Positions 26,702 to 48,287 of a stretch of 64,000 bases of DNA are shown here, one piece after another. The translations under genes were made by a program, and so were the position numbers. Under the pieces are notes generated by a model, which saw only the letters and a list, made by a program, of their open reading frames with translations, did not search any database and was not told the DNA's origin. This DNA comes from an uncultured Planctomycetales bacterium (GTDB taxonomy: Bacteria > Omnitrophota > Gorgyraeia > Zapsychrales > Aceulaceae): positions 176,128-240,127 of the forward strand of contig CAZYOA010000001.1 in NCBI GenBank assembly GCA_964648665.1. The letters run 5' to 3'. Positions within the stretch are counted from its first letter, which is position 1; the number at the start of each line of letters is the position of its first letter.

Positions 26702-27139
26702 ATGTTTTATGGTGAATATTCGCATAACATAGATAAAAAAGGACGCCTCATACTTCCGGCTCGTTTTCGAGACGTTTCGAAAGAAAATGGAATTGAGCGC
26801 TTTTTCCTTACGCGTGGTTTAGATAAATGTATTTTTATGTTCACAGAACACGAATGGATGACCCAAGAGCAAAAGTTCAAAGGTATGTCTTTTACTAAAC
26901 GCGAAAGCCGCAGTTTTAATCGCATGTTTTTCTCCGGTGCTGCTGATGTTTCTCCTGATAAGCAGGGCCGCTTTATCATTCCTGGATATTTAAAAGATTT
27001 TGCACAGATACGAAAAGATGTTGTTGTCATTGGAGTCTCTAATCGCATAGAAATTTGGGATCAGAAAATCTGGAAAGATTTTTATAGTGATTCACAGAAT
27101 TCATTTGAGGATGTTGCTGAAAACATATTGGACATTTAA
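26702..27139 (+). CDS. mraZ: Transcriptional regulator MraZ
   Basis: Two SpoVT/AbrB-like repeats with DKKGRLILPARFR and DKQGRFIIPGYL. Confidence 0.95.
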   Translation: MFYGEYSHNIDKKGRLILPARFRDVSKENGIERFFLTRGLDKCIFMFTEHEWMTQEQKFKGMSFTKRESRSFNRMFFSGAADVSPDKQGRFIIPGYLKDFAQIRKDVVVIGVSNRIEIWDQKIWKDFYSDSQNSFEDVAENILDI

Positions 27140-27141
27140 CT

Positions 27142-28062
27142 ATGGTTACTATGGCAAATAATATTAAACATGTTCCTGTTATGATTAATGAAATCCTTGA
27201 GCACTTGGATCTCTTTGAGGGTGCTTGTATCTTGGATTGCACCTTAGGGCTTGGAGGTCACAGCAAGGAAATTGCAAGAAAAATAGGACCTCAGGGTCTT
27301 TTAATTGGAATTGATAGGGATGAGGATTCTATTGCTCTTGCTCAGCAAAATTTAGAAGAATTTTCAGGTCGATGTGCTTTTGCTCAAAAAGATTTTAGAG
27401 ATTTAGATGTTGCATTAGATAGCTTTGGCATTGATCAGGTTGATGGCATTTTGCTTGATTTGGGAATCTCTAGCTATCAGCTTGATACGTCAGAGAGAGG
27501 CTTTAGCATACGATCAGATGGGCCATTAGATATGCGCATGGATCGAAATAGTCTCATTAGCGCATATGATTTGATTAATTCGCTTTCAAGTAAAGAAATT
27601 TCATCTATATTGAAGAATTTCGGAGAAGAAAGGTGGCATGATCGTATTGCTGATTATTTGGTCAAATCTCGCATAAAGCATCCAATTGAGTCAACGGAAG
27701 AGCTTAAGAATATTATTTTAAGAGCAATTCCAAATCGTTTTCAAGATCATCATATTCATCCAGCGACTCGAGTATTTCAAGCATTTCGTATTGCTGTTAA
27801 TCGCGAATTAGAGGCTCTTGAGATTGCTTTAACGAAAGCTATTCAATATTTAAAGCCAGGCGCATCTATTTGTGTTATTTCATTTCATTCGCTAGAGGAT
27901 CGTATTGTAAAAGAAAAATTTAAATATTGCGCAAAAGAACAGATCTTAGAAATTATTACTAAGAAGCCTTTGCGTTCATCTGAACAAGAAATTCAAAATA
28001 ATGCACGCGCACGAAGCGCAAAATTACGCGTAGCCAAACGAATTAAAAGAGGAAAAGAATGA
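27142..28062 (+). CDS. rsmH: 16S rRNA (cytosine1402-N4)-methyltransferase
   Basis: HVPVMINE, LDCTLGLGGHS, DLGISSYQLD, SFHSLEDRIVK. Confidence 0.95.
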   Translation: MVTMANNIKHVPVMINEILEHLDLFEGACILDCTLGLGGHSKEIARKIGPQGLLIGIDRDEDSIALAQQNLEEFSGRCAFAQKDFRDLDVALDSFGIDQVDGILLDLGISSYQLDTSERGFSIRSDGPLDMRMDRNSLISAYDLINSLSSKEISSILKNFGEERWHDRIADYLVKSRIKHPIESTEELKNIILRAIPNRFQDHHIHPATRVFQAFRIAVNRELEALEIALTKAIQYLKPGASICVISFHSLEDRIVKEKFKYCAKEQILEIITKKPLRSSEQEIQNNARARSAKLRVAKRIKRGKE

Positions 28063-28442
28063 ATTTTAGGAAATTTCTAATTATAATGCTAAGTGTGACG
28101 GCTGTGACATTGGTTTATATTCAGATGCAGGTCAAGATTTATGATCTAGCTTATCAAGGGAAAAGCCGAGAAACAAAAATATTTAAACTTATTGATGATA
28201 ATGGTTATGTCTCCTATAATATTGCTAAGCTTAAGTCACCAAATTCTTTGGTAGAGCGATTTTTAGCGAAGAATAGCGATATTGATTTCTTAGATTCTCA
28301 AAATATTGTTCAAGTTAAGATCCCAAGTCAACTTGCGGTACAAAAGATTTTTACCCCAGAATCGGTGCTAAAGAAAACAACCGCCATCTTGGCGAGCGTT
28401 TTTTCTGTAAAATCTGTTGCAGAAGCAAAATCAATACGATAA
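28059..28442 (+). CDS. ftsL: Cell division protein FtsL-like (small bitopic membrane protein)
   Basis: 127 aa with a single N-terminal TM. Called from the conserved position between rsmH and ftsI; no sequence motif. Confidence 0.5.
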   Translation: MNFRKFLIIMLSVTAVTLVYIQMQVKIYDLAYQGKSRETKIFKLIDDNGYVSYNIAKLKSPNSLVERFLAKNSDIDFLDSQNIVQVKIPSQLAVQKIFTPESVLKKTTAILASVFSVKSVAEAKSIR

Positions 28443-28462
28443 CACCAATATAATGGCGATCC

Positions 28463-30145
28463 GTGTATTTTAAAAGACATTCACTCCGATTTGTTTTTCT
28501 CTTCCTTTCCTTTTTCTTTTTGCTTGTATTCTTTGTTTTTAAATTAATCATGATTCAGGTTTTTAAATCTGAATATCTTTCAAATCTTGCAAAAAAACAA
28601 CATAGTTATGTCTTAAAGCTTGAGCCTAAAAGAGGAACGATTTACGATCGAAAGCTTCGTCCTTTGGCCCTGAATGTGGCTGCGTTTTCATTATATGCAT
28701 CGCCGCGCACTATGACCGAAGATCAAAAGATCAGGGCTGTGAAGGTTTTAAGTGGTGCGCTAAATCTTAAAAAAAGTTTTTTAGATGGCCGTATGAATCG
28801 AGACAAGAATTTTATTTGGATCGCTCGAAAATTATCTCCAAAAAAGGCTGAGAAAATAAGGGCTCTGAAGCTTAAGGGGTTAGATTTTATAAAGGAAACT
28901 AAGCGTTATTATCCTGGGCAGTCTTTGGGAGCACATTTTATAGGATTTGCAGGGATAGATAATTATGGGCTAGAAGGTCTTGAGTTAAAATATAATGATT
29001 ATTTGCGTGGTCAATTTGGAATGGCTCAAATTTTGCGTGATGCCAAACAAAGAGATCTTTTGATTCAAGAAAGTTTTTTGCAACCTAAGAATGGCTATGA
29101 TCTTGTTTTAACTATTGATGAAACTATTCAATATTTTGCTGAAAAAGCTTTAGATAAAGCATTTGTAAAACATGATGCAAAGGCTGCATGCATTATCATT
29201 ATGAATCCCAAAACAGGAGAAATATTAGCTCTTGCTAATCGTCCAACGTATGATTTGAGTAATATTAAATCTAATTCTTTAGATAGTCGTCGTAATCGAG
29301 CGGTAAGTGATATGTTTGAGCCTGGATCGGTTTTTAAAATTGTAACAGCTTCTGCCGCATTGCAAGAGGGGGCGGTTGTTGAGAGTGATGAAATATTTTG
29401 TGAAAATGGAGAGTACCGCGTTGCTAATCATATCCTTCATGATCATCATTCGCATGGAATGTTAACTTTTAGAGAAGTTATAGAGCAATCAAGTAATATT
29501 GGAACGGTGAAGGTTGCGCAGAAGCTTACAGGCGAGACTGTTAATCATTATGCACGCTTGTTTCAGTTTGGAAAGAAAACTGGTGTTGATTTACCCGGAG
29601 AGGTGCCAGGAGTGCTTAAGCCTGTGTCACGTTGGTCCGGAACATCGATTGGAGCCGTTCCTATAGGACATGAAGTAGGAGTAACAGCTTTACAACTTGT
29701 TTGTGCGGTATCAGCAGTAGCCAATGATGGTATTTACATGAGGCCATTTATTGTTCAATATATTCGGGATCAGAATGGAGATATTGTAGAAGGTTTCTTG
29801 CCACATCCAATTACAGAATCTATTAATCGGGAAACAGCAAGTCGCGTTCGAGATATTTTAGTTGGGGTTGTTGATAATGGAACTGGACGCAGAGCAAGGA
29901 TTAAGAATGTAAAGGTTGCAGGAAAAACTGGGACAGCGCAAAAGATTGTTGATGGTGTTTATTCTCATAGCAAATTTTATGCAACATTTATTGGGTTTGC
30001 TCCAGCTGATGATCCTAAGCTTGCTATGGTTGTATTTTTTGATGAGCCTCATCCCAGTCATTACGGAGGAACTGTTTCTGCTCCAGTTTTTAGAGAAGTT
30101 GCAGAAAATGTGCTAAAATACCTTGGAGCCAGTAGAGGAAATTAG
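28463..30145 (+). CDS. ftsI: Peptidoglycan D,D-transpeptidase FtsI (class B PBP)
   Basis: GTG start, N-terminal TM. Transpeptidase motifs SVFK (SxxK), SSN (SxN), KTGT (KTG). Confidence 0.9.
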   Translation: MYFKRHSLRFVFLFLSFFFLLVFFVFKLIMIQVFKSEYLSNLAKKQHSYVLKLEPKRGTIYDRKLRPLALNVAAFSLYASPRTMTEDQKIRAVKVLSGALNLKKSFLDGRMNRDKNFIWIARKLSPKKAEKIRALKLKGLDFIKETKRYYPGQSLGAHFIGFAGIDNYGLEGLELKYNDYLRGQFGMAQILRDAKQRDLLIQESFLQPKNGYDLVLTIDETIQYFAEKALDKAFVKHDAKAACIIIMNPKTGEILALANRPTYDLSNIKSNSLDSRRNRAVSDMFEPGSVFKIVTASAALQEGAVVESDEIFCENGEYRVANHILHDHHSHGMLTFREVIEQSSNIGTVKVAQKLTGETVNHYARLFQFGKKTGVDLPGEVPGVLKPVSRWSGTSIGAVPIGHEVGVTALQLVCAVSAVANDGIYMRPFIVQYIRDQNGDIVEGFLPHPITESINRETASRVRDILVGVVDNGTGRRARIKNVKVAGKTGTAQKIVDGVYSHSKFYATFIGFAPADDPKLAMVVFFDEPHPSHYGGTVSAPVFREVAENVLKYLGASRGN

Positions 30146-30150: not shown

Positions 30151-31605
30151 ATGAAATTAAAAGATTTACTTAAAGATATTTACAGTTTTGAAATCGAAGA
30201 GCATTTTCAGCTCTATGATATTCATGGCATTTCTTGTGATTCAAGAGACGCTCAAGAGGGAGGGATTTTTGTTGCCATCAGGGGATCTGGCGTTGATGGT
30301 GCTGATTTTATTGATGAGGCTATTTCTAAAGGTGCCGTTGCTGTTGCTATTGATCAGAATGAAGTAATAAACTCTTTTAACAAGAATGTTTGCATTCTTA
30401 AAGTTGAGAATACAAGAAAGTTTTTAGCCGAAGCCGCAGGCCAAATTTATAATTTTCCTTGGGAGCAAATAAATTGTTTTGGAATTACTGGAACCAACGG
30501 AAAAACAACAATTTCATATTTAATAGAATCAATCCTTAAATCTGCCCAAAGGAAATGTGGCGTTATCGGAACAATCAATTGTCACTATAGCGGCCAGGTA
30601 ATTCCTATTAATAATACGACTCCTAGCATTGTTGATATTTGCCACTATTTAACTGATATGAAGATTAGAAACGTTCGCGACTGCATCATGGAGGTTTCAT
30701 CTCATGCCTTGGATCAAGATAGAGTTTTAGGAATAGATTTTAAAACGGCAATCTTCACCAATTTAACCCAGGATCATCTCGACTATCATCAAAGCATGGA
30801 AAGTTATTTCTTGGCAAAATCGAAGCTTTTTTCAACGCTTTCAAAGGATTCTTGTGCGGTTATTAATACTGATGATGTTTGGGGTCAGAAAATGATAGAG
30901 AGAACACAGGCAAAAGTAATAACTTATGGAATTGATCGTCAAGCTGACATTATGGCAAGCGATATCTCTTTAGCGTTAAATGGATCTAGATTTATACTCA
31001 AAACAAATGATGTGCATTCTGAGTTTGAAACAACTTTGATTGGACGGCATAACATTTATAATATTTTGGCAGCAGTTGCAGCTTGTTTAAATTATGGTGT
31101 TAGTTTTGAAGATATTCAATCAGGCATTGAATATCTAAATTTTATTTCAGGCAGACTTGAGCCAATTATCGAGGATCAAAATTTCTTTATTTTTGTTGAT
31201 TATGCGCATACAGATGATGCTCTAAAGAATGTTTTGCAGACACTTCAAGATGTTAAGACTGGAAAGCTTATTGTTGTTTTTGGATGTGGTGGAGATCGAG
31301 ATAAAACAAAAAGAATCAAAATGGGTGCTGTTGCAAGTGCGCTTTCAGATTTTGCCATTATCACAAATGATAATCCTCGAAGTGAAAATCCTCAAGAGAT
31401 TGCACATAAGATTTCTTCGGGATTTGATCATGATCGATATTTGATGATTCTAGATAGAAGAGAAGCCATCAAGAAGGCTTTTTCGATGGCAGAAAAGAAT
31501 GATATTGTTTTAATAGCAGGAAAAGGTCATGAAAATTATCAAATTCTGAAACATGAAACAATTCATTTCGATGATCGGCAAGCTGCCAGAGAGTGCTTGG
31601 CATGA
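30151..31605 (+). CDS. murE: UDP-N-acetylmuramoyl-L-alanyl-D-glutamate--2,6-diaminopimelate ligase
   Basis: GITGTNGKTT P-loop; the DNPRSE (DNPR) motif is typical of meso-DAP-adding MurE. Confidence 0.9.
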   Translation: MKLKDLLKDIYSFEIEEHFQLYDIHGISCDSRDAQEGGIFVAIRGSGVDGADFIDEAISKGAVAVAIDQNEVINSFNKNVCILKVENTRKFLAEAAGQIYNFPWEQINCFGITGTNGKTTISYLIESILKSAQRKCGVIGTINCHYSGQVIPINNTTPSIVDICHYLTDMKIRNVRDCIMEVSSHALDQDRVLGIDFKTAIFTNLTQDHLDYHQSMESYFLAKSKLFSTLSKDSCAVINTDDVWGQKMIERTQAKVITYGIDRQADIMASDISLALNGSRFILKTNDVHSEFETTLIGRHNIYNILAAVAACLNYGVSFEDIQSGIEYLNFISGRLEPIIEDQNFFIFVDYAHTDDALKNVLQTLQDVKTGKLIVVFGCGGDRDKTKRIKMGAVASALSDFAIITNDNPRSENPQEIAHKISSGFDHDRYLMILDRREAIKKAFSMAEKNDIVLIAGKGHENYQILKHETIHFDDRQAARECLA

Positions 31606-32954
31606 TGACTGTTAAGGAAATTATAAGCTTAACAAATGGGCGCCTAATTCATGGTGACTTAAAGCAAAAATCTAGTGGAGTTTCAACGGATTCACGAACA
31701 ATTAAGAAGAATAATCTTTTTATTGCGTTAAAGGGAAAAAGATTTGATGGGCATAAATTTCTATTATCTGTTGCGCGAAAGAATATAAAGGTCGTTTTAG
31801 TATCAAAAAAGCCTGAGAAGAAGTATTCGAATATTTCTGTTATTCTTGTTAAGGATACATCTTTTGCTTTGCAAGACCTTGCTCGATCGCATCGTGAGAA
31901 TTTTCAAATTCCTGTCATTGCAATTACAGGAAGCTGTGGAAAAACAACAACAAAAGAGTTGATCGCTTCTGTTTTGTCAAAGAAGTTATGTGTTCTTAAG
32001 AACTTTTCGACAGAAAATAACTTCATTGGCGTCTCTAAAACAATTTTAGAATTAAAGTCAAAGCATGATGTTTTGATTTTAGAGTTTGGGACAAATCATT
32101 TTGGGGAAATTAAAAATCTTGTAAATATTGCCAATCCTACAATTTGCGTATTGACCAATGTTGGCAAGTCACATCTTGAGTTTTTAAAGACATCAGCTGG
32201 CGTTTTTAAGGAAAAAAAAGGAATATATGCAAATTTAGAGAAATCTGGAACTATTATTTTTAATAGGGATGATGAATTTTTATCTAAAATTTTTAAAGAA
32301 AAAACTTTAGCGCAGAAACTTACTTTCTCAATTAATCAAAAATCTAATATCCAGGCCTTAAAAATACAGCGGATGCCAAAAGGAATTCATTTTTTTGTTG
32401 GAAAGCAAAAGTTTTTTGTAAACTCTTTCTCTTATTCTGGAGTTTACAATGCGCTTTGTGCGATTTCCGTAGGTACGCTTTTTAATTTTCCTAAAAAAAC
32501 TATGGCCCTAGCTCTTTTAAAAGCAAGATTACCAGGACAAAGACAAAGCTTATGTTTTACAAAAAAGAAATTCTGGATTATTGATGATAGCTACAACGCA
32601 AATCCTCTTTCTGTTAAGTTTGCTTTAGAGTCTCTTTGCTATCTTCCAACAAAGAGAAAGAGAATCTTTGTTTTTGGGGGCATGGGAGAGCTTGGCCGAT
32701 CATCATCTCAAGCTCATAAAGATATTGGTCATTTGATTGATAAGAATAAAGTGGACTATTTTATAACAATTGGGAAGAATGCTCGTCTTGCAATAAAGGC
32801 AGTTGGCCAAAGACATATTTCGACTTTAAGCTTTGATTCTTGTAAACCTGCTTTGACATTCTTGAAAAGTTTTGTTTGTGCTGGTGATTCCGTGTTAATT
32901 AAAGGTTCTCGCAGCTTTCACCTTGAAGAGATTGTTTCTCAGCTAAAAAAATAA
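31593..32954 (+). CDS. murF: UDP-N-acetylmuramoyl-tripeptide--D-alanyl-D-alanine ligase
   Basis: ITGSCGKTTTKE, DDSYNANP, dcw position. Confidence 0.9.
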   Translation: MLGMMTVKEIISLTNGRLIHGDLKQKSSGVSTDSRTIKKNNLFIALKGKRFDGHKFLLSVARKNIKVVLVSKKPEKKYSNISVILVKDTSFALQDLARSHRENFQIPVIAITGSCGKTTTKELIASVLSKKLCVLKNFSTENNFIGVSKTILELKSKHDVLILEFGTNHFGEIKNLVNIANPTICVLTNVGKSHLEFLKTSAGVFKEKKGIYANLEKSGTIIFNRDDEFLSKIFKEKTLAQKLTFSINQKSNIQALKIQRMPKGIHFFVGKQKFFVNSFSYSGVYNALCAISVGTLFNFPKKTMALALLKARLPGQRQSLCFTKKKFWIIDDSYNANPLSVKFALESLCYLPTKRKRIFVFGGMGELGRSSSQAHKDIGHLIDKNKVDYFITIGKNARLAIKAVGQRHISTLSFDSCKPALTFLKSFVCAGDSVLIKGSRSFHLEEIVSQLKK

Positions 32955-33027: not shown

Positions 33028-34113
33028 ATGTTTTATTTCTTTTCGACCCTTCGGGACACATATCCTCAGCTTAATATTTTTAAATATATTACATTTAGGG
33101 CAGGTGCTGCGGCTGTAACGTCTTTTTTGTTATGTATTTTTTTTGCTCCTATGATCATTCGAAAATTGAAGCAGCATAAGATTGGAGAAGATGTTAAAAG
33201 AGAGTACTGTGAAAAATTATCGGATATGCAAAAGGATAAGCAAGGCACTCCGACAATGGGAGGCATCTTTGTTATTGGAAGTATTTTGTTTTCTGTTTTG
33301 TTATGGTCTGATTTAACTAGCCCTTATATTTTGATTACGATTTTAACATGTGCTTGGCTTGCGGTTCTTGGCTTTGTTGATGATTTCTTAAAGATTGCTC
33401 ATGGAAAACATCGTGGAATTCGTGGCTGGACAAAATTGCTTTGGCAATCTATTTTGGGTTGCTTGGTTGGGTATTTTATTTTCTGGCGTCCTGAAATATC
33501 AACGGTTCTCGATGTTCCTTTTTTCAAATCGTTAATACTTAATCTCGGTATTTTTTATATTCCTTTTGCTATTTTGATTATTGTTGGAAGTTCAAATGCT
33601 GTAAACCTTACAGATGGGCTAGATGGGCTTGCATCGGGATGTGTTTTAATTGTTGCGATGGGTCTAGGAGCCCTTTCGTATATTTCTGGTCATTTTAATT
33701 TTGCTGAGTATTTATTTTTACCATATATAGCTGGAGGTGGAGAGCTGTCAGTTTTTTGTGCAGCGATTGTTGGTGCTAGTTTAGGTTTTTTATGGTTTAA
33801 CTGTTATCCGGCATCGATTTTTATGGGGGACACAGGTTCTCTTGCGCTCGGTGGAACTTTAGGAATAATTGCAATTTTAATTAAAAAGGAATTGCTTCTT
33901 GTCATTCTTGGAGGGATATTTGTTGCTGAGGCCTTATCCGTAATTTTGCAGGTCGCTTCTGTTAAAATACGCAAAAAACGCATGTTTAAAATAGCTCCTT
34001 TTCATCATCATCTTCAATTCTTAGGTTGGAATGAATCTAAAATTATTATACGATTTTGGATTGTTGCTATTATTTTAGCCTTCATAACATTAACAACGCT
34101 TAAGATTAGATAA
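33028..34113 (+). CDS. mraY: Phospho-N-acetylmuramoyl-pentapeptide transferase
   Basis: 10-TM protein; NAVNLTDGLDGLA, MGDTGSLALGG, APFHHH. Confidence 0.95.
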   Translation: MFYFFSTLRDTYPQLNIFKYITFRAGAAAVTSFLLCIFFAPMIIRKLKQHKIGEDVKREYCEKLSDMQKDKQGTPTMGGIFVIGSILFSVLLWSDLTSPYILITILTCAWLAVLGFVDDFLKIAHGKHRGIRGWTKLLWQSILGCLVGYFIFWRPEISTVLDVPFFKSLILNLGIFYIPFAILIIVGSSNAVNLTDGLDGLASGCVLIVAMGLGALSYISGHFNFAEYLFLPYIAGGGELSVFCAAIVGASLGFLWFNCYPASIFMGDTGSLALGGTLGIIAILIKKELLLVILGGIFVAEALSVILQVASVKIRKKRMFKIAPFHHHLQFLGWNESKIIIRFWIVAIILAFITLTTLKIR

Positions 34114-36470: not shown

Positions 36471-36478
36471 GAGGATTT

Positions 36479-41402: not shown

Positions 41403-42625
41403 TCAAGGAAAAGATTTATTGTGGTCTAGATTTGGGTTCTCAGAAAATCAAGGCGAGTATAATGCGGATTTCAAAGGATCAACTTGATCTTTTGGGTGTT
41501 TCGCAAATTAATGCTCAAGGTATCTTAAGTTCATCAGTTACTGACTTAAGAGAGCTTTGTGATTGTACGCATCGCATTCTATCAGGCTTGTCTAAGAAAT
41601 CTGGCATAAAAATTAAGAATGTTAATCTTGGTCTGGGTGGTCATCTAGTTGATAGCCGTAACAGTCAGACAGTTATTCCTCTTACAGATCGAGGAAGCAA
41701 GGTGATTACATCTTTTGATATTCGAAAAATTAGTCGGCAAACTTGTCTTTTAGGTGTAAATTTAGATGAGCGATTATTTCATAATTTCCCAACACGATAC
41801 GTTGTTGATGGTTTTAATGTTGCGACGAACCCTTTGGGGTTGTATGGACGAAAGCTTGAAGTAGACAGTCTTTTGTTAGTTGCAAAGAATAATTTAGTTA
41901 ATAACATTTATAAATCTGTTAATCAAGCGGGTTTTGAGATCTCAAGAATCTTTTTTTCTTCGCTTTCTGCTGCTAAAATTGGCTTATCTTCGCAACAAAA
42001 AAAAGATGGATGTCTTTTTGTAAGCATAGGAACTGAAGTGACGGATATTTTATTTTTTAAAGATTATCTTTTGAAAGCTGTACGGATTATTCCTTGGGGC
42101 GGAAATCATTTAACGAATGCAATTAGTAAAGAGCTTGGCTTGCCGTTTGATTTGTCTGAGGATATCAAGCGATCATATGCATCTGTTTCGGATTGCGACC
42201 AAGAAGTCGAGCAGGGTGAAATTTTAGTAAAAAAAGATTCTGGATATATTCCAATACAGCGAGGAGATGTTTCGAAAGCAATTTGTTCATCGGTGCATGA
42301 TTTTATTAAGCAATTCTGTAATCTTCTTAATCAGGAGAAAATTATTGAACATTTATCTCAGGGTATCGTTATGAGTGGGGGTGGATCTTTGTTGCCTGGA
42401 TTGCTTGAACAAATTGAGAAGAAAACAAAGTTGCAGACTCAAATCGGAAAAGTTGGGGTTGAGTCTAGGCGCTTAAGTAATCCGGCTGTTTATGCGGCAG
42501 CAATAGGTTTAGCGCAAGATAATGGCAAGGATTCGTTGAATAATATTTTTTCACCAAATGAAAGTGGATCAGTGGTTAAGCGTTTTTCTAATCGAGTTAA
42601 AGAAATTTACCAGGAGTATTTTTAA
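41399..42625 (+). CDS. ftsA: Cell division protein FtsA (actin-like ATPase)
   Basis: GLDLGSQKIKA phosphate-1 motif, SGGGSLLPG, C-terminal amphipathic tail VKRFSNRVKEIYQEYF. Confidence 0.85.
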   Translation: MIKEKIYCGLDLGSQKIKASIMRISKDQLDLLGVSQINAQGILSSSVTDLRELCDCTHRILSGLSKKSGIKIKNVNLGLGGHLVDSRNSQTVIPLTDRGSKVITSFDIRKISRQTCLLGVNLDERLFHNFPTRYVVDGFNVATNPLGLYGRKLEVDSLLLVAKNNLVNNIYKSVNQAGFEISRIFFSSLSAAKIGLSSQQKKDGCLFVSIGTEVTDILFFKDYLLKAVRIIPWGGNHLTNAISKELGLPFDLSEDIKRSYASVSDCDQEVEQGEILVKKDSGYIPIQRGDVSKAICSSVHDFIKQFCNLLNQEKIIEHLSQGIVMSGGGSLLPGLLEQIEKKTKLQTQIGKVGVESRRLSNPAVYAAAIGLAQDNGKDSLNNIFSPNESGSVVKRFSNRVKEIYQEYF

Positions 42626-43596
42626 TGAATAGTTTAAAAGATTCAAAAGTTGTTGTTACGGGTGGAGCTGGGTGTATTGGTTCTTTTGTTGTTGATGAAG
42701 TTTTGCGACAGGGTGCCAAAGAAGTTGTTGTTGTTGATAATTTTGTACGTGGATTAAAGAAAAATATTGAACCTGCCTTATCAACGGGAAGAGCACGTTT
42801 GATGGAGGAAGATATTAGAGATGCTGATGCTATGAAAGAAGCTTTTAAGGGTGTTGATTATTGTTTTCATTTAGCATCTTTAAAAATTATTCAGTGTAAT
42901 GCTGAACCTCGTCATGCTTTAGAAGTTAATGTTGATGGAACATTTAATGTTTTAGAAGCATGTGCACAAAATAATGTTAAAAAAATTGTTTTATCTTCAA
43001 CCGCTTCAGTTTATGGACATGCGGATAATTTTCCGACTCAAGAAACTCATCATCCTTATAATAGTTATACTTTGTATGGTGCTTTTAAGGTTGCCAATGA
43101 ATTGATGTTTCAGTCCTTTTACCAGATGAATGGACTAAAGTTTAATACTCTTCGTTATTTTAATGTTTTTGGGCCGAGAATGGACGCGCATGGAAAATAT
43201 ACAGAAGTTTTGATTCGTTGGTATCAGTTGATTAAGAAAGGTGAGCAGCCTTTAATTTATGGTGATGGAAAGCAAACTATGGATTTTATTTATGTTGAAG
43301 ATGTTGCGCGCGCAACCGTTTTAGCTTTAACGGCAGATACTTGTAATCAAGTTTTTAATTGCGCAAGCGGAAAAGAAACCTCGCTTGAAGAACTTTGTTG
43401 TGCACTGCTAGAAGTTATGAAATCTGATTTAAAGCCAAAGTATATAGACATGCCAGCGGATAGGAATAAAATTGAAGTTCTTAGACGATTGGCAGATGTT
43501 TCAAAGGCAAGAGAAAATATTGATTTTCAGGTTGAGGTTGACTTAAGGCAGGGGCTAGAAAGACTTGTGCAATGGCTTGAGGCGGAGAAAATTTAA
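42625..43596 (+). CDS. NAD-dependent nucleotide-sugar epimerase/dehydratase (extended SDR)
   Basis: TGGAGCIGS Rossmann motif, SSTASVYG, YGAFK (YxxxK). The ATG overlaps the ftsA stop (TAATG). Confidence 0.85.
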   Translation: MNSLKDSKVVVTGGAGCIGSFVVDEVLRQGAKEVVVVDNFVRGLKKNIEPALSTGRARLMEEDIRDADAMKEAFKGVDYCFHLASLKIIQCNAEPRHALEVNVDGTFNVLEACAQNNVKKIVLSSTASVYGHADNFPTQETHHPYNSYTLYGAFKVANELMFQSFYQMNGLKFNTLRYFNVFGPRMDAHGKYTEVLIRWYQLIKKGEQPLIYGDGKQTMDFIYVEDVARATVLALTADTCNQVFNCASGKETSLEELCCALLEVMKSDLKPKYIDMPADRNKIEVLRRLADVSKARENIDFQVEVDLRQGLERLVQWLEAEKI

Positions 43597-44855
43597 TGAA
43601 AATGATACCTATCACGCGTCCTTTTTTAGGTGAAGAAGAGGTTGAGGCAGCAGCGCGATCTATTCGCTCGGGTTGGGTTACGCAAGGTCCAAAAGTTAAG
43701 GAATTTGAAGATGCTTTTGCGTCGTTTGTTGGCGCCAAACATGCTTGTGCGGTATCAAATTGTACAACCGCACTTCATTTAGCTCTGTTGGCGGTTGGGG
43801 TTAAGCCTGGTGATGTTGTTATAACTGTTAGTCATTCTTTTATCGCAACAGCGAATAGTGTGCGTTATTGTGGCGGAGAGCCAGTTTTTGTAGATATTGA
43901 ATCACAGAGTGTTAATATGTGCCCGAAAGCTTTGAAACTTTTTTTAGAGAATGATTGTGAAAAAAGGCCGACTGGTTTATTTTATAAGCATGTTAATCGT
44001 TTAATTCGAAAAGAATCGCCTTTGTCTAATTTAGTTGGGCAGGATAAAGGGAAAATAGAGAATGTTGGACGAATTTCTGCTATTGTTGCTGTTCATCAAT
44101 TAGGAATTCCGTGTGATTTAAGGAATATTTTACCGCTTTCAAATTTGTATAAAATTCCTGTTGTTGAAGATGCTGCATTTGCTACTGGAAGTGAAATTTC
44201 TTTTGATGATGGGAAAGTTTGGGAAAAAATCGGAAAGCCTCATGGCGACATTGCATGTTTTTCTTTTCACCCTAGAAAACCTTTGGTCACAGGGGAAGGT
44301 GGAATGCTAACAACAGCAAATGAGCAATATGATAGTATGTTTCGCTTGATGCGCCATCAGGGCATGGCAGTTTCAGATTTAGTTCGTCATCAGTCAAAGA
44401 AAATTATTATCGAAGATTATATTGTCACTGGATACAATTACCGTATGACAGATATCCAAGCCGCTATCGGTGTCGAGCAGCTTAAGCGTTTACCGGAGAT
44501 GATTCGAAAGAAGAAAGAAATTTCTGAGTTTTATTTAAAGAATTTCTCAGAAATTTCATGGGCAGAAAAGATTTTAGATCCATCTTATGGTCATTCGAAC
44601 TGTCAAAATTTTCCTATTGTTTTAAACGAATCTGCACCATTGGATCGAGACGAAATAATGCAATATTTCTTGGATCGAGGTATTTCAACGCGTCCGTGTG
44701 TTATGAATTCACATCATGAAATTCCTTATAAATCAGATTTATGGTCTTTGCCAAATTCAGATCGGACTCGCAATCGAGGTATTTTGTTGCCTTTATTTTA
44801 CGAGATAACTGATCAGGAATTAGAACAAATTGTTGAGGCTTTTAAGAATGTCTAA
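43596..44855 (+). CDS. DegT/DnrJ/EryC1/StrS-family PLP-dependent sugar aminotransferase
   Basis: PITRPFLGEEE, G.VTQGPKV.EFE, SFHPRKPLVTGEGGML (PLP Lys). The ATG overlaps the upstream stop. Confidence 0.85.
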   Translation: MKMIPITRPFLGEEEVEAAARSIRSGWVTQGPKVKEFEDAFASFVGAKHACAVSNCTTALHLALLAVGVKPGDVVITVSHSFIATANSVRYCGGEPVFVDIESQSVNMCPKALKLFLENDCEKRPTGLFYKHVNRLIRKESPLSNLVGQDKGKIENVGRISAIVAVHQLGIPCDLRNILPLSNLYKIPVVEDAAFATGSEISFDDGKVWEKIGKPHGDIACFSFHPRKPLVTGEGGMLTTANEQYDSMFRLMRHQGMAVSDLVRHQSKKIIIEDYIVTGYNYRMTDIQAAIGVEQLKRLPEMIRKKKEISEFYLKNFSEISWAEKILDPSYGHSNCQNFPIVLNESAPLDRDEIMQYFLDRGISTRPCVMNSHHEIPYKSDLWSLPNSDRTRNRGILLPLFYEITDQELEQIVEAFKNV

Positions 44856-45498
44856 AGATTTAATTTTATTTCCATTTGGTGGTAGTGCAAGAGAAGCTCT
44901 TGTGACAATTCAGTCGTGCTCTATTTTATCTGACGAGTGGAATATTCTTGGTTTCGTAGACGACAACTCGGAGTTAAAAGATAAAGAATGTTGTGATGTT
45001 AAAGTTTTAGGAGGGCGTGAAGTTTTTGATCAAAATAAAAATGCTTATGTTTTGGCTGTTCCGGCTCATCCAGATAGTTATTTAAAAAGAAAAATGATTA
45101 TTGATAATCTTGGCATTGATTTTAAAAGATGGGCAACGATTATTCATTCGAGTTGTGTTGTTTCGAAAGATGCGCAAATAGGCGTAAATACAATCGTTAT
45201 GCCTTATGGATTTATAAGTTCTAAAGCAAGTATTGGTAATCATTGTGTTATTTTATCGCGATCTATTATTTCACATGATGTAAAAATAAAGGATTATTGT
45301 TGCCTTGGTGGCCATGTAACAATCTCTGGATCTGTTGTGATTGATGAGCAATCTTATATTGGATCATCGGCAACAATTCGAGAAGATATTTCAATAGGTA
45401 GAGGTGCTTTAGTTGGCATGGGATCTAATGTTGTTGGTAATCTTCAGTCAGGTGTTGTTGTTGTTGGAAATCCGGCAAAAGAAATTCGAAAAGAATAG
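44848..45498 (+). CDS. Sugar N-acetyltransferase, NeuD/PglD-like (left-handed beta-helix)
   Basis: N-terminal Rossmann-like LILFPFGGSAREAL...ILGFVDDN, then hexapeptide repeats (IG.N..I). Start taken at ATG 44848 (MSKDL...). Confidence 0.8.
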   Translation: MSKDLILFPFGGSAREALVTIQSCSILSDEWNILGFVDDNSELKDKECCDVKVLGGREVFDQNKNAYVLAVPAHPDSYLKRKMIIDNLGIDFKRWATIIHSSCVVSKDAQIGVNTIVMPYGFISSKASIGNHCVILSRSIISHDVKIKDYCCLGGHVTISGSVVIDEQSYIGSSATIREDISIGRGALVGMGSNVVGNLQSGVVVVGNPAKEIRKE

Positions 45499-45525
45499 TA
45501 TAAAAAATTATACAAGGAAATAAAA

Positions 45526-46446
45526 ATGATCTCAGTAATTTTTCCCGTATTTAATGAGCAGGATAATCTCCAAGAATTATATCAGCGCTTGTCATCCGCG
45601 GTAGAAAAGGTAGAGGGGTATGACTTTGAATTTATTTTTGTTGATGATTGCTCGGCTGATAAAACGCCAGAAATTTTAAAAGATTTACATTCAAAAGATC
45701 AGCGCGTGAAGATCATTCGATTTGCACGTAACTGTGGAGGTCATGCGGCTCTCATGGCTGGTCTTTATTCTTGCAAGGGTGATTGCGCGATAGCGTTGGC
45801 TGCAGATCTTCAAGATCCGCCTGAATTGATATTTGATTTAATTGCGAACTGGAAAGAAGGAGCAAAAATTGTTTGGGCAGCAAGATTAAAACGACAAGGC
45901 GAAAGTTTTTCAGTAAAAATATTTTCTAAGTTTTATTATACGTTAATCAATGTTTTAACAAATGTTCAAATGCCGAGTTTGGGAGTTGATGTTTTCTTGG
46001 CAGATCGCATAGCTATTGAATCTTTAAAAAGCATGCCAGAAAAACATAGCTCTATTTATATGGCGCTTGCGTGGCTTGGTTTCCCTCAAGCAACAATTGA
46101 ATATGTTAAAGAAGCAAGAGCTAATGGGGCTTCAAAGTGGAGTTTAAGTAAAAAAATTAAACTTATGATTGATTCGATTTTATCATTTAGTCATGTCTTG
46201 ATTCGATCAATGAGCATTTTTGGTTTTGTAACAGCGCTTGTTGGCTTTGCCTATGCGGCTTGGATTGTCGGAAAGGCATTGTTGTATGGATTTGCAGTTC
46301 AGGGGTGGTCTTCACTTATGGTGGCTATTCTTGTTGTTGGTGGCATTCAAATGATGATGCTTGGTGTTTTAGGTGAATATCTTTGGAGAACATTTGATGA
46401 ATCTCGTCGAAGACCGAGGTTTGTTATTGAGTATAAAATTGATTAA
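45526..46446 (+). CDS. Polyprenyl-phosphate glycosyltransferase, GT2 family (GtrB/ArnC/DPM1-like)
   Basis: ISVIFPVFNEQDN, VDDCSADKT, AADLQDPPE; two C-terminal TM helices typical of GtrB/ArnC. Confidence 0.85.
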   Translation: MISVIFPVFNEQDNLQELYQRLSSAVEKVEGYDFEFIFVDDCSADKTPEILKDLHSKDQRVKIIRFARNCGGHAALMAGLYSCKGDCAIALAADLQDPPELIFDLIANWKEGAKIVWAARLKRQGESFSVKIFSKFYYTLINVLTNVQMPSLGVDVFLADRIAIESLKSMPEKHSSIYMALAWLGFPQATIEYVKEARANGASKWSLSKKIKLMIDSILSFSHVLIRSMSIFGFVTALVGFAYAAWIVGKALLYGFAVQGWSSLMVAILVVGGIQMMMLGVLGEYLWRTFDESRRRPRFVIEYKID

Positions 46447-46451
46447 AGATT

Positions 46452-48287
46452 ATGAAAAGAAATAAAATTGCAATTGAAGTGTTAATTTTTTCTTTAATGT
46501 TGCTGTCTTTGGCAATTAAGCATTTGAGTCCATATTTGATTCAAAATCTTTATGCAAATAATGAAATCTTTTTACTTAATTTATTTTCTGGCAATTTAGG
46601 CAAGGTTGCAGAATCTGTTGATTTTTATTTGGGTCGATCTCAGGAGGTTCTTTTTGGTCCAGTAAGCCTTATTTTTTCTGGATCAGCTCTTATTTTGTTT
46701 TGTTTAAAATATCTTGAGAGATTAACCTTTTGGAAATTTGCCGCCACACTTTTCATCTTCCTTATTATTACAAAATTTGAAATTTTATTTTTTCCACCTT
46801 ATGGCGATTCGGCAAGCGGGCCTGTCATTGAAGGAATTTGGCTTTTACATAATGATTTTAATTATGCGAAGCTGGCAGGAGAGGTTGTTTTTGTTAGAGG
46901 CGGACCGAAAGTCTACCTTTTTTCTTTATATCCGACTTATTTAGCTATTTTGATGAAAATATTTACAAATGGAAAAATGTTTGTCGCCGTGAATCATGTT
47001 CTTATCTTTGGAGCCAGTGCGATTATTCTTTCATATTTTCGTTCACTGGCTTATAAAATTTTTAATAAGCGTTTATCTGTATTGTTGACTATTTTTCTTT
47101 TATCGTTGCCTCTTGTGCAAAGTCAAATTGAACAAATTAACATGGAAATTCCTGTTCTGTTCTTTGCGATGGCATGTCTTTATTATGTAGCAAATAAGAA
47201 GATTCTTCGTGGCGCTCTTTTTGCCGGTCTTGCTATTTTTACAAAATTGTATTCAGTGTATATGGGCGGAGTTGTTTTATTTGTTGGATTATATTTGTTT
47301 TTCTTTGCAGAGAAACAAAAAGGAAATTTAAAAGTTCTAGGCTCAAGCATTCTTTCTGTTTTCTTTGCAATAGCGGGAGCACTTAGCTTGTTCTTTTTTA
47401 TGAATTTGGATGGAAGCAAGGTTGATAAGGTGGGCATGTTTCAGGGATTTTATTTAATCAAGACATTTCCTGTGACTTATTTTTATACGTTTAGTTTTAT
47501 CGCATTAATTGTTTTTGCAATTTTATTTATTCGAAAGCAGAATAAGAGTGTTTTAAGATCTTTGAATGAGTTTATACTTTCTCATTTCGAAGTTATGGTT
47601 ATTTTTGTTTGCTCGATGGGGTGGTTTGTTTTATTCTTAAACTCAGGCTGGATTCCTCCACGATATACATTGCTTTTGTTGCCATCGTTGATTCTTGGCG
47701 CTTTTTATGTTGCAAACAATTTAATTCAAAATAAGAAATTATTAGAGCAGGGCGTAATGGCTCTAATCTTTATTGGATTTTTGTGTTCCTACGGACTTCC
47801 TTATGAGCCTGTTAAAATTCAGGATCATGCGATTACAGAACGAAGCCTTGAATATAGAAATGATGTTTTGTTGCACATGAAACTTGCGAAATTGCTTGAA
47901 GAAAAGTATTCAAACTTAATTATTGGTGCGCCATTTACGTTAGCTCAAGTATTAGCATTTCCAGAGATGGGATTTACTTCCAAGAAATTAGATATTATGA
48001 TTTATCTATATCCGTGCACGTATGGGGGAGTTCGAAATTTTGAAGGATTTGAAAAGATTAACCCAAAAAATATTGTTTGGGTTGGCGTTAAGACTCCGTT
48101 TATGTTTAGCGAGCATGTGCCGTATGGTCTGCATGATTTAATTATTGAAGAGCTGGAAGTTGGAAATAAATATGCAAATTTATTTGTCGGTGGATTTTCT
48201 GTAAATGCATTGTATCATTATGGTCAATCTTTGGTGCGTCAAATGGAAGCGCATGGTATCAAGAAACCAGAACTTAAAGCTTATTAA
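46452..48287 (+). CDS. Large polytopic membrane protein with C-terminal soluble domain (possible GT-C-fold glycosyltransferase)
   Basis: 611 aa, at least 12 hydrophobic helices, then a ~150-aa hydrophilic tail. Loop FFPPYGDSASGPVIEG and LYPTYLAIL are weakly GT-C-like. Context is next to the GtrB-like GT2. Confidence 0.45.
   Translation: MKRNKIAIEVLIFSLMLLSLAIKHLSPYLIQNLYANNEIFLLNLFSGNLGKVAESVDFYLGRSQEVLFGPVSLIFSGSALILFCLKYLERLTFWKFAATLFIFLIITKFEILFFPPYGDSASGPVIEGIWLLHNDFNYAKLAGEVVFVRGGPKVYLFSLYPTYLAILMKIFTNGKMFVAVNHVLIFGASAIILSYFRSLAYKIFNKRLSVLLTIFLLSLPLVQSQIEQINMEIPVLFFAMACLYYVANKKILRGALFAGLAIFTKLYSVYMGGVVLFVGLYLFFFAEKQKGNLKVLGSSILSVFFAIAGALSLFFFMNLDGSKVDKVGMFQGFYLIKTFPVTYFYTFSFIALIVFAILFIRKQNKSVLRSLNEFILSHFEVMVIFVCSMGWFVLFLNSGWIPPRYTLLLLPSLILGAFYVANNLIQNKKLLEQGVMALIFIGFLCSYGLPYEPVKIQDHAITERSLEYRNDVLLHMKLAKLLEEKYSNLIIGAPFTLAQVLAFPEMGFTSKKLDIMIYLYPCTYGGVRNFEGFEKINPKNIVWVGVKTPFMFSEHVPYGLHDLIIEELEVGNKYANLFVGGFSVNALYHYGQSLVRQMEAHGIKKPELKAY

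What the first reader, a model, noticed from the sequence alone, without database searches (positions are those of the whole stretch)
26702..48287. dcw operon ends at ftsA with no ftsZ and continues seamlessly into a glycosylation module (21.6 kb, 20 co-directional genes)
The canonical order is ...ftsQ-ftsA-ftsZ. Here the ftsA stop overlaps (TAATG at 42623-42627) the start of an NAD-dependent sugar epimerase/dehydratase. That gene's stop in turn overlaps the aminotransferase start (43596). From mraZ to the 611-aa membrane protein the largest gaps are 73 and 27 nt, and nine junctions overlap. No ORF in the window carries a tubulin/FtsZ signature (GGGTG[ST]G). Some PVC lineages (Planctomycetes, Chlamydiae) are known to lack ftsZ. 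An FtsA-containing but FtsZ-less dcw cluster, transcriptionally fused to envelope glycosylation, would be unusual. It hints that septation and surface-glycan modification are co-regulated.
Basis: partly seen in the sequence, partly recalled or inferred. Interest (0 to 1): 0.6.

Follow-up and report, generated by a model that had tools for sequence, protein, structure and literature searches.

The report
Omnitrophota cell-wall operon lacking ftsZ
This is the cell-division and cell-wall gene cluster of an uncultured Omnitrophota bacterium, a phylum already reported to have lost the division protein FtsZ while keeping FtsA; the sugar-modification genes that follow ftsA are neighbours found only in one sub-lineage.

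Summary
Positions 26702-48287 hold 20 co-directional genes, from mraZ to ftsA followed by five glycosylation genes. The TAATG stop/start overlaps at 42623-42627 and 43594-43598 are real, and no FtsZ or tubulin homologue occurs anywhere in the 64 kb.

The organism belongs to Omnitrophota; its FtsA is 77% identical to that of Ca. Aceula lacicola. In 114 related loci with at least 1 kb after ftsA, none carries ftsZ.

Loss of ftsZ across the phylum is already published (Seymour 2023 supplement; Pende 2021). The only "Omnitrophica" genome reported with FtsZ, OLB16, has since been moved to another phylum. The headline is therefore a known trait, not a discovery.

The link to glycosylation is confined to the Aceula clade. 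Other Omnitrophota have yggS-proC-pnp-ileS or signalling genes after ftsA, and the GT2 plus GT-C gene pair also occurs far from dcw. Tight packing is a property of the whole window (57 of 60 genes on one strand).

The module resembles an Arn/Pgf-type pathway that loads a sugar onto undecaprenyl phosphate. The 611-aa protein has a GT-C glycosyltransferase fold.

What remains unstudied is how FtsA works without FtsZ. Its C-terminal YQEYF tail is invariant.

The parts
26630..26658 (+). Best sigma-70-like promoter match (TTGACA-17-TATACT), in the 227-nt gap upstream of mraZ; the likely start of the dcw transcript.
   Evidence: 11 of 12 matches. Promoter-like sites overall occur at chance frequency, so this is only suggestive.
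26702..27139 (+). mraZ
   Evidence: PF02381, E = 1.6e-38.
27142..28062 (+). rsmH/mraW, 16S rRNA methyltransferase
   Evidence: PF01795, E = 1.9e-103.
28059..28442 (+). 127-aa protein with one N-terminal TM helix, in the ftsL position
   Evidence: No Pfam or NCBIfam hit. One TM helix at residues 3-21. Called FtsL-like from position only.
28463..30145 (+). ftsI (PBP3-type transpeptidase)
   Evidence: PF00905 plus PF03717.
30151..32954 (+). Two Mur ligases, named murE then murF from their position
   Evidence: Mur_ligase N, M and C domains in both.
33028..34113 (+). mraY
   Evidence: PF00953 plus the MraY signature.
34117..35379 (+). murD
   Evidence: MurD-like N domain plus Mur ligase M and C domains.
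35379..36470 (+). ftsW
   Evidence: PF01098, E = 7e-113.
36422..37543 (+). murG
   Evidence: PF03033 plus PF04101. Public gene calls start it 19 codons later.
37540..38313 (+). Secreted HExxH metallopeptidase (Peptidase_MA_2), a lineage-specific gene inside the dcw cluster
   Evidence: PF13485, E = 2.5e-16. N-terminal hydrophobic segment and HELGH at residue 126. Present between murG and murC in 59 of 82 Omnitrophota loci.
38306..39664 (+). murC
   Evidence: Mur ligase domains.
39671..40639 (+). ddl (D-Ala-D-Ala ligase)
   Evidence: PF07478 plus PF01820.
40623..41402 (+). ftsQ
   Evidence: POTRA_1 plus FtsQ_DivIB_C. One TM helix.
41399..42625 (+). ftsA, last gene of the dcw block. It ends in the Omnitrophota-invariant tail KEIYQEYF.
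   Evidence: TIGR01174, 214 bits against a cutoff of 176. SHS2 and FtsA domains. PDB FtsA hits at E = 1e-34. Tail conservation in alignment A1.
42612..42627 (+). ftsA/SDR junction: AGGAG Shine-Dalgarno sequence (42612-42616, inside the Q-E codons of the FtsA tail), an 8-nt spacer, then TAATG, where the ftsA stop and the SDR start overlap
   Evidence: Sequence read.
42625..43596 (+). NAD-dependent sugar 4,6-dehydratase/epimerase (SDR)
   Evidence: PF01370, E = 2.8e-53. Best NCBIfam matches are LegB, GalE and RmlB, all below their cutoffs.
43596..44855 (+). DegT-family sugar aminotransferase
   Evidence: PF01041, E = 7e-94. Similar to PseC, LegC and ArnB.
44830..45498 (+). NeuD/PglB/VioB-family sugar N-acetyltransferase
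   Evidence: TIGR03570, 172 bits against a cutoff of 161.
45526..46446 (+). GT2 polyprenyl-phosphate glycosyltransferase (PgfS/ArnC-like) with two C-terminal TM helices
   Evidence: PF00535. PgfS 223 bits and ArnC 167 bits, both below cutoff. TM helices at 223-241 and 252-270.
46452..48287 (+). 611-aa GT-C-fold glycosyltransferase belonging to an Omnitrophota-specific family
   Evidence: No Pfam, NCBIfam or PDB sequence hit. AF2 pLDDT 93. Foldseek top hits are ALG12, ALG9, ArnT, AglB and PglB. All 69 homologues are either named Omnitrophota or unnamed.
48284..49645 (-). Convergent second GT-C glycosyltransferase (PMT_2 family); it marks the 3' end of the co-directional run
   Evidence: PF13231, E = 4.9e-9. 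Syntenic in all Aceula-clade loci.
49642..50085 (-). 147-aa single-TM protein that always accompanies the PMT_2 gene
   Evidence: No family hit. Conserved at 48-70% identity in clade-A loci only.

Best explanation
The window comes from an uncultured Omnitrophota bacterium related to Ca. Aceula. Its dcw cluster stops at ftsA because the whole phylum has lost ftsZ while keeping an intact, conserved ftsA together with ftsQ, ftsW, ftsI and the Mur pathway. In the Aceula clade only, the position after ftsA is filled by a glycosylation module. I infer the following pathway from the enzyme families. An SDR dehydratase/epimerase, a DegT aminotransferase and a NeuD-family acetyltransferase make a nucleotide-linked acetamido sugar. 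A PgfS/ArnC-like GT2 transfers that sugar to undecaprenyl phosphate. Two GT-C-fold enzymes (the 611-aa protein and the convergent PMT_2 protein) then transfer it to an unknown acceptor on the periplasmic side. The module is probably read through from the dcw promoter, since the stop and start codons overlap, Shine-Dalgarno sequences are present and there is no room for a terminator. That compaction is typical of the whole genome, so it does not show that division and glycosylation are functionally linked. I also infer, without direct evidence, that division runs without FtsZ, with membrane-bound FtsA (possibly aided by MreB) organising septal peptidoglycan synthesis by FtsQ/L and FtsW/I.
For: Taxonomy: the FtsA homologues are named Omnitrophota or Ca. 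Aceula lacicola, and 77 genome loci are almost all titled Ca. Omnitrophota. No ftsZ was found in the window or in 141 fetched loci totalling 1.91 Mb. Of those loci, 114 have at least 1 kb after ftsA and 56 have at least 8 kb. Synteny falls into three classes. In 57 loci ftsA is followed directly (gap of about 10-700 nt) by yggS-proC-pnp-ileS-dksA-lspA-lgt. In 45 loci it is followed by other arrangements, mostly a convergent small membrane ORF with signalling genes. In 12 loci it is followed by the glycosylation module. Published phylum-wide absence of ftsZ: Seymour 2023 supplement, Pende 2021 legend and supplementary table. OLB16, the sole exception in those surveys, is now classified as Ca. 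Hinthialibacterota. Module enzymology. Homologous GT2 plus GT-C pairs occur away from dcw in other Omnitrophota. Packing is genome-wide. The same arrangement appears in independent ENA, JGI and Logan assemblies.
Against: I could not scan the rest of this genome. Only 64 kb of a contig of about 243 kb was available, and attempts to extend it failed. Absence of ftsZ in this particular organism therefore rests on the published phylum survey and on synteny. Reviews from the PVC field say that Omnitrophica have FtsZ, but that claim traces back to OLB16. A 2025 paper groups Omnitrophota with phyla whose dcw genes are 'highly conserved', without giving per-gene data. The sugar made by the module and its acceptor are unknown, and no flippase was identified. 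There are no transcript data.
Confidence: 0.85

Rival explanations
1. Simple rearrangement: a normal ftsZ sits elsewhere in this genome, and division is conventional.
For: Only 64 kb was inspected. PVC reviews and a 2025 survey describe Omnitrophota as retaining dcw genes or FtsZ.
Against: The Seymour 2023 supplement reports that species representatives across the phylum lack ftsZ, apart from one copy 89% identical to an archaeal protein. Pende 2021 found FtsA but no FtsZ in three Omnitrophica proteomes. The genome behind the 'has FtsZ' statements, OLB16, is no longer placed in Omnitrophota. The KO list of one genome (labelled 58 in the supplement) has K03587-K03590 but not K03531.
Confidence: 0.05
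2. One reading: the glycosylation module is a functional part of the division operon. Envelope glycan modification (for example of septal peptidoglycan, lipid II, lipid A or divisome proteins) would be co-regulated with septation, perhaps compensating for the loss of FtsZ.
For: The stop/start overlap or a gap of at most 2 nt between ftsA and the SDR gene is kept across the Aceula clade down to 47% FtsA identity. No terminator-like site lies at the junction. Shine-Dalgarno sequences sit 8 nt before both overlapping starts.
Against: Only 12 of 114 loci have this arrangement. All other FtsZ-less Omnitrophota lack it, so it cannot be a general substitute for FtsZ. Paralogous GT2 plus GT-C pairs lie in unrelated contexts. 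Overlaps and small gaps are equally common outside the cluster. The module sits between ftsA and gcvT, a region where related genomes carry a variety of other genes.
Confidence: 0.2
3. A very divergent tubulin/FtsZ-like protein, or an unrelated replacement protein, is encoded elsewhere or in the vacated slot and takes over the role of FtsZ.
For: FtsA is strongly conserved and has an invariant C-terminal motif, which could mean it still binds a partner. Many genes downstream of ftsA in related loci have no Pfam hit.
Against: Nothing tubulin-like was found in 1.91 Mb around ftsA, even with the FtsZ HMM run with --max at E up to 10. The genes found in the slot are response regulators, histidine kinases, GGDEF-HD proteins, NUDIX, MORN and a small membrane protein. 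None of them is conserved across all three synteny classes.
Confidence: 0.07
4. Assembly or binning artefact: ftsZ was dropped, or a chimeric join was made at the ftsA/SDR junction.
For: The source is a metagenome-derived contig.
Against: The identical FtsA protein is on record on 8 contigs from NCBI, JGI, ENA and Logan assemblies; in the 3 whose DNA could be read (L001-L003), tblastn shows 100% identical proteins on both sides of the junction. The junction is also present in related species.
Confidence: 0.01

Closest known systems
Phylum-wide ftsZ loss in Omnitrophota (Seymour et al. 2023, Nat Microbiol, Supplementary Information; Pende et al. 2021, Nat Commun, Fig. 5 legend and Supplementary Data)
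   Same: Same phylum and same trait: no ftsZ, with ftsA, ftsQ, ftsW and ftsI kept. This window is one more example.
   Different: Those papers give only presence/absence calls. They do not describe the dcw gene order, the empty ftsZ slot, the conserved FtsA tail or the Aceula-clade glycosylation neighbour.
FtsZ-less division in Chlamydiota and Planctomycetota
   Same: PVC lineages that keep peptidoglycan synthesis genes but lack FtsZ.
   Different: They have also lost FtsA (Pende 2021; iScience 2025), and in Planctomycetota the dcw cluster is fragmented. Here the dcw cluster is intact and colinear from mraZ to ftsA, and FtsA is conserved.
Canonical dcw cluster of E. coli and B. subtilis (mraZ ... 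ftsQ-ftsA-ftsZ)
   Same: Gene order from mraZ to ftsA is canonical.
   Different: There is no ftsZ and no murB in the cluster. A secreted Peptidase_MA_2 gene lies between murG and murC. ftsA is followed by sugar-modification genes instead of ftsZ-lpxC or ftsZ-ylmD-ylmE-sepF (that canonical order is from my own knowledge).
Arn pathway (ArnB, ArnC, ArnT) for lipid A aminoarabinose modification
   Same: The logic is the same: an aminotransferase acts on a nucleotide keto-sugar, the amino group is N-acylated, a GT2 transfers the sugar to undecaprenyl phosphate, and a GT-C enzyme transfers it on the periplasmic side. ArnT (5f15) is a top structural match to the 611-aa protein.
   Different: All sequence scores fall below the Arn equivalog cutoffs. 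The acyltransferase is a hexapeptide NeuD-type enzyme rather than the ArnA formyltransferase. No ArnD or ArnE/F is present. There are two GT-C enzymes, and the acceptor is unknown.
Streptococcus mutans Pgf protein-glycosylation system (PgfS, PgfM1, PgfE, PgfM2), as I recall it
   Same: The best NCBIfam match of the GT2 is PgfS (223 bits). Both systems combine an epimerase, a GT2 and two large membrane proteins.
   Different: The score is below the 500-bit cutoff. This organism is a diderm PVC bacterium, and the module has an additional aminotransferase and acetyltransferase.

Membership tests
dcw (division and cell wall) gene cluster | Colinear order mraZ-rsmH-ftsL-ftsI-murE-murF-mraY-murD-ftsW-murG-murC-ddl-ftsQ-ftsA | tested here: met
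   Pfam on each ORF. FtsL is assigned from position and one TM helix only.
dcw (division and cell wall) gene cluster | ftsZ immediately after ftsA | tested here: not met
   The next gene is an SDR epimerase. No FtsZ was found by regex, tblastn, Pfam or HMM.
dcw (division and cell wall) gene cluster | murB within the cluster | tested here: not met
   No MurB domain among the 20 genes. A Peptidase_MA_2 gene lies between murG and murC.
FtsA (TIGR01174) | Score above the curated equivalog cutoff | tested here: met
   214.2 bits against a cutoff of 175.85. PDB FtsA hits at E = 1e-34.
FtsA (TIGR01174) | SHS2 (1C) subdomain inserted in the actin fold | tested here: met
   PF02491 at residues 81-159.
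FtsA (TIGR01174) | C-terminal amphipathic membrane-targeting helix | tested here: met
   VKRFSNRVKEIYQEYF aligns with the E. coli sequence IKRLNSWLRKEF. This is sequence-level evidence only; membrane binding was not tested.
FtsA (TIGR01174) | Residues in subdomain 2B that bind the FtsZ tail (E. coli R300 and E303; their role is recalled from the literature, not checked here) | tested here: not met
   In a MAFFT alignment of 14 Omnitrophota FtsA with E. coli FtsA, these positions are not conserved and the helix is 7 residues shorter (the same gap appears in the HMMER alignments). Alignment in this region is weak, so treat this as a lead.
FtsZ-less PVC lineage (Omnitrophota) | Belongs to the phylum Omnitrophota | tested here: met
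   Names of the closest FtsA proteins and titles of 77 genome loci. NCBI lineage of Ca. Aceula.
FtsZ-less PVC lineage (Omnitrophota) | No FtsZ homologue anywhere in the genome | not testable with these tools
   Only the window and 10-kb flanks of related loci could be read. The feature is supported by the published phylum survey and by Pende 2021.
Polyprenyl-phosphate-sugar periplasmic glycosylation (ArnC/ArnT, GtrB/GtrA/Gtr, Pgf type) | GT2 polyprenyl-phosphate glycosyltransferase with C-terminal TM helices | tested here: met
   Similar to PgfS and ArnC, below the equivalog cutoffs. Two C-terminal TM helices.
Polyprenyl-phosphate-sugar periplasmic glycosylation (ArnC/ArnT, GtrB/GtrA/Gtr, Pgf type) | GT-C-fold transferase that uses the lipid-linked sugar | tested here: met
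   The 611-aa protein matches ALG12, ALG9, ArnT and PglB by Foldseek with a pLDDT-93 model. The second enzyme hits PMT_2.
Polyprenyl-phosphate-sugar periplasmic glycosylation (ArnC/ArnT, GtrB/GtrA/Gtr, Pgf type) | Small multi-TM flippase (GtrA or ArnE/F) | tested here: not met
   No GtrA or EamA-type hit. The 147-aa neighbour has one TM helix and no family match.
Polyprenyl-phosphate-sugar periplasmic glycosylation (ArnC/ArnT, GtrB/GtrA/Gtr, Pgf type) | Defined sugar donor and acceptor | not testable with these tools
   The enzyme families (LegB/GalE-like SDR, PseC/ArnB-like aminotransferase, NeuD-family acetyltransferase) point to an acetamido-deoxy sugar only.

The most novel reading that the evidence does not exclude
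Omnitrophota may be the one bacterial lineage that lost FtsZ but kept FtsA, and may divide with an FtsA-centred divisome. On this reading, membrane-bound FtsA filaments directly organise FtsQ/L and FtsW/I. The phylum-invariant C-terminal YQEYF tail and the shortened 2B helix would be adaptations to a new partner, or to life without the FtsZ tail. In the Aceula clade, an undecaprenyl-phosphate-linked acetamido-sugar glycosylation system would be expressed on the same transcript to modify the newly made envelope.
Probability: 0.3. Interest if true: 0.7.

Novelty: already known. Interest (0 to 1): 0.35.

Why it matters
The headline, an ftsA-containing dcw cluster without ftsZ, is a published trait of the phylum Omnitrophota, so it is not a discovery. 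There is still something useful here for the cell-division field. The literature is inconsistent: PVC reviews say Omnitrophica have FtsZ, on the strength of one genome (OLB16) that NCBI has since moved to another phylum. The gene-order data gathered here show that the ftsZ slot is empty in every Omnitrophota locus recovered (114 loci, including GTDB species representatives), while ftsA stays intact and keeps an invariant tail. This makes Omnitrophota a natural case for asking what FtsA does without FtsZ. The glycosylation module adds one more Arn/Pgf-like system with an uncharacterised, Omnitrophota-specific GT-C family.

Tried and rejected
1. Extending the window. Exact-protein look-ups with genes near both window ends gave nothing on one side and only a 5.8-kb contig on the other. 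The contig of about 243 kb seen could not be retrieved, so no whole-genome FtsZ scan was possible.

2. A protein-database search with FtsZ as query was considered and dropped. It lists only the 120 best hits and has no taxon filter, so a negative result would say nothing about Omnitrophota.

3. A replacement gene in the vacated ftsZ slot. Downstream ORFs of all loci were clustered and representatives were scanned. They are a response regulator, a histidine kinase, a GGDEF-HD protein, NUDIX, MORN, a metallo-beta-lactamase-fold protein, VanZ and a small membrane protein. None is tubulin-like and none is shared by all synteny classes.

4. Homology between the 147-aa protein of the window and the small convergent ORF that follows ftsA in class-B loci: none was detectable.

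5. The 611-aa protein gave nothing by Pfam, NCBIfam or PDB sequence search. Only the structure prediction resolved it.

6. Megrian et al. 2022, on dcw cluster evolution, is not held in the library. A 2026 preprint with 176 complete Omnitrophota genomes does not mention FtsZ or FtsA in its text or its held supplement. The supplement of the 2025 iScience paper has no Omnitrophota rows.

The exact species is therefore left as 'Aceula-related'.

8. Promoter and terminator scans are at chance level and cannot define transcript boundaries.

Full report
**Observation.** Pfam and NCBIfam scans of the 20 ORFs from 26702 to 48287 give this order: mraZ, rsmH, a 127-aa single-TM ORF in the ftsL position, ftsI, two Mur ligases (murE and murF by position), mraY, murD, ftsW, murG, a Peptidase_MA_2 gene, murC, ddl, ftsQ and ftsA. 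FtsA scores 214 bits on TIGR01174 against a cutoff of 176. After ftsA come an SDR epimerase/dehydratase, a DegT aminotransferase, a NeuD/PglB/VioB-family acetyltransferase (above cutoff), a GT2 and a 611-aa membrane protein.

The ftsA stop and the SDR start share TAATG at 42623-42627. The SDR stop and the degT start share TAATG at 43594-43598. The largest gaps are 73 and 27 nt, and 9-11 junctions overlap depending on start-codon choice.

No FtsZ is present in the 64 kb. A six-frame search for the tubulin signature found nothing. tblastn with E. coli and B. subtilis FtsZ gave no hit better than E = 8. About 60 ORFs of the window were scanned against Pfam without a tubulin or FtsZ hit. An FtsZ HMM run without filters gave only noise. 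The positive control, E. coli against B. subtilis FtsZ, gives E = 3e-99.

**Is the tight packing special?** It is not. In the window 57 of 60 genes are on the + strand and about 95% of the sequence is coding. Same-strand gaps have a median of -1 nt inside the cluster and 3 nt outside, which is not a significant difference (p = 0.12). The run is bounded upstream by a 227-nt gap holding the best promoter-like site, TTGACA-17-TATACT at 26630-26658. It is bounded downstream by a convergent PMT_2 gene.

**Which organism.** The closest FtsA proteins are named Ca. Aceula lacicola (77% identity) and Ca. Omnitrophota or Omnitrophica. The identical FtsA protein is on record on 8 contigs from NCBI, JGI, ENA and Logan assemblies. 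The three whose DNA could be read show the same genes on both sides of the junction, so this is not an assembly artefact. NCBI places Ca. Aceula in Ca. Omnitrophota within the PVC group.

**Synteny across the phylum.** I fetched 53 metagenome loci and 77 loci from GTDB species representatives, plus several loci found through exact-protein look-ups. The GTDB scan used the FtsA C-terminal pattern [KR][ED][IL]YQEYF, and nearly all of its loci are titled Ca. Omnitrophota. None of the 141 loci (1.91 Mb) contains ftsZ. Of these, 114 have at least 1 kb downstream of ftsA, 85 at least 3 kb and 56 at least 8 kb.

Three arrangements follow ftsA:
- **Class A (12 loci, FtsA 47-100% identical, the Aceula clade).** The SDR-DegT-(acetyltransferase)-GT2-(radical SAM)-GT-C module, then the convergent PMT_2 gene and a small ORF, then gcvT.
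- **Class C (57 loci, FtsA 27-36% identical).** yggS (ylmE)-proC-pnp-ileS-dksA-lspA-lgt begins about 10-700 nt after ftsA (Pfam). From my own knowledge, ylmE and ileS/lspA lie downstream of ftsZ in many bacteria. This therefore looks like the ancestral neighbourhood with ftsZ cleanly removed.
- **Remaining 45 loci (mostly FtsA 38-45% identical).** Typically a small convergent membrane ORF and a receiver-domain gene, then variable genes, and in many cases gcvTH.

The genes that occupy the vacated slot are signalling or housekeeping proteins. None is tubulin-like.

**Literature.**
- Seymour et al. 2023 state in their Supplementary Information that Omnitrophota lack a homologue of ftsZ, "except for one occurrence". 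That one copy is 89% identical to an archaeal protein and is attributed to contamination or recent transfer.
- A KO list in the same supplement shows one genome (labelled 58) with K03587-K03590 (ftsI, ftsW, ftsQ, ftsA) and K03569-K03571 (mreBCD) but without K03531 (ftsZ).
- Pende et al. 2021 write that FtsZ is absent from Planctomycetes, Omnitrophica and Chlamydiae, and that FtsA is also absent from the first and last of these. Their table lists FtsA without FtsZ for three Omnitrophica genomes.
- The opposite statement in PVC reviews, that Omnitrophica have FtsZ, rests on 'Omnitrophica bacterium OLB16'. NCBI now classifies that genome as Ca. Hinthialibacterota.

I could not scan the rest of this particular genome.

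**FtsA itself.** It is a full-length FtsA with the SHS2 1C subdomain, and it is intact in all loci. Across Omnitrophota FtsA proteins that share only 28-77% identity, the last residues are nearly invariant: KEIYQEYF, with E406, Y407 and F408 invariant. This tail aligns with the E. coli membrane-targeting helix, VKRFSNRVKE against IKRLNSWLRKE.

In the same alignment, all Omnitrophota FtsA are 7 residues shorter in the long 2B helix, and the positions of E. coli R300 and E303 are not conserved. I recall those two residues as needed for binding the FtsZ tail, but I did not check this against the literature. The alignment there is weak, so this is only a lead. It fits relaxed selection on an FtsZ-binding surface.

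**The glycosylation module.** The SDR is closest to LegB, GalE and RmlB. The aminotransferase is closest to PseC, LegC and ArnB. The acetyltransferase is a NeuD/PglB/VioB family member. The GT2 is closest to PgfS and ArnC and has two C-terminal TM helices.

The 611-aa protein has no sequence-family hit. It has about 11 TM helices followed by a soluble C-terminal domain. Its 69 homologues are all either named Omnitrophota or unnamed. An AlphaFold model built from a 48-sequence alignment has pLDDT 93. Its best structural matches are the GT-C enzymes ALG12, ALG9, ArnT, AglB and PglB. The convergent 453-aa gene is a PMT_2 GT-C.

I infer this pathway: a nucleotide-linked acetamido-deoxy sugar is made, transferred to undecaprenyl phosphate by the GT2, flipped across the membrane, and transferred to an unknown acceptor by one or both GT-C enzymes. 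No flippase was identified.

**Is the module part of the division programme?** Co-transcription is likely. The overlap, or a gap of at most 2 nt, is kept throughout the Aceula clade. AGGAG lies 8 nt before the SDR start and GGAG lies 8 nt before the degT start. No terminator-like site lies at the junction.

Functional coupling is not supported. The arrangement is confined to one clade. Homologous GT2 plus GT-C pairs sit in unrelated contexts in other Omnitrophota. The module lies between ftsA and gcvT, where related genomes hold a variety of other genes. Overlapping junctions are also the genome-wide norm.

**Verdict.** The FtsZ-less, FtsA-containing dcw cluster is a known trait of Omnitrophota, although it is buried in a supplement and contradicted by reviews that relied on a misclassified genome. 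The glycosylation adjacency is a clade-specific neighbourhood in a compact genome. The open and more interesting question is how FtsA functions without FtsZ in this phylum. I rate novelty as already known and interest as 0.35.

Noticed in passing
window 37540-38313 (+): A secreted HExxH metallopeptidase (Peptidase_MA_2, HELGH at residue 126) lies inside the dcw cluster between murG and murC. It is present at that position in 59 of 82 Omnitrophota loci. It might act as a septal hydrolase, but nothing here shows that.
   Followed up: partly
window 42602-42622 (FtsA residues 402-408): The FtsA C-terminus KEIYQEYF is nearly invariant across Omnitrophota FtsA proteins that share only 28-77% identity overall. 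The pattern [KR][ED][IL]YQEYF recovered FtsA loci from 76 genomes, nearly all titled Omnitrophota, in 185,579 genomes. Such strict conservation suggests the tail does more than bind membrane.
   Followed up: partly
window about 42250-42330 (FtsA subdomain 2B): All Omnitrophota FtsA are 7 residues shorter than E. coli FtsA in the 2B helix. The positions of E. coli R300 and E303, which I recall as FtsZ-tail contacts, are not conserved. The alignment in this region is weak.
   Followed up: partly
L025 11357-18235, and 56 other loci: In most Omnitrophota, ftsA is followed directly by yggS(ylmE)-proC-pnp-ileS-dksA-lspA-lgt. This looks like an ancestral post-ftsZ neighbourhood with ftsZ precisely absent.
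   Followed up: yes
NCBI taxid 1617433: 'Omnitrophica bacterium OLB16' is the genome on which PVC reviews base the claim that Omnitrophica have FtsZ. NCBI now classifies it as Candidatus Hinthialibacterota.
   Followed up: yes
window 2528-9517 (+): A 2329-aa ORF whose only Pfam hit is a C-terminal GNAT acetyltransferase domain. Very long proteins are the subject of a 2026 preprint on Omnitrophota.
   Followed up: no
L005/L064 14456-15901; L063 about 13200-16900: The module varies within the Aceula clade. In L005 and L064 a B12-binding radical SAM gene is present and the hexapeptide acetyltransferase is missing. L063 has two tandem copies of the 611-aa GT-C gene.
   Followed up: no
L007, L069 and about 25 other loci, immediately after ftsA: A conserved small (111-175 aa) membrane ORF lies on the opposite strand, convergent with ftsA. 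It is often followed by a stand-alone response-regulator receiver gene. L120-L122 carry NUDIX, a PAS histidine kinase and a GGDEF-HD gene between ftsA and yggS.
   Followed up: partly
window 57594-59702 (+): A second small glycosylation unit, GT2-DUF2304-GT2, lies downstream. It is followed by an AAA ATPase, a T2SS-C-like protein and a secretin at 59802-63022.
   Followed up: no
window 50192-50267 and 17922-17996: tRNA-Arg(TCG) lies between the glycosylation block and gcvT. tRNA-Pro(CGG) lies upstream. ARAGORN called tRNA-Pro, but Rfam did not at gathering threshold.
   Followed up: no
Seymour 2023, Supplementary file 1: The same passage that reports ftsZ loss also claims a lineage-wide absence of ftsY (the SRP receptor) in Omnitrophota. 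That would be unusual. It was not examined here.
   Followed up: no
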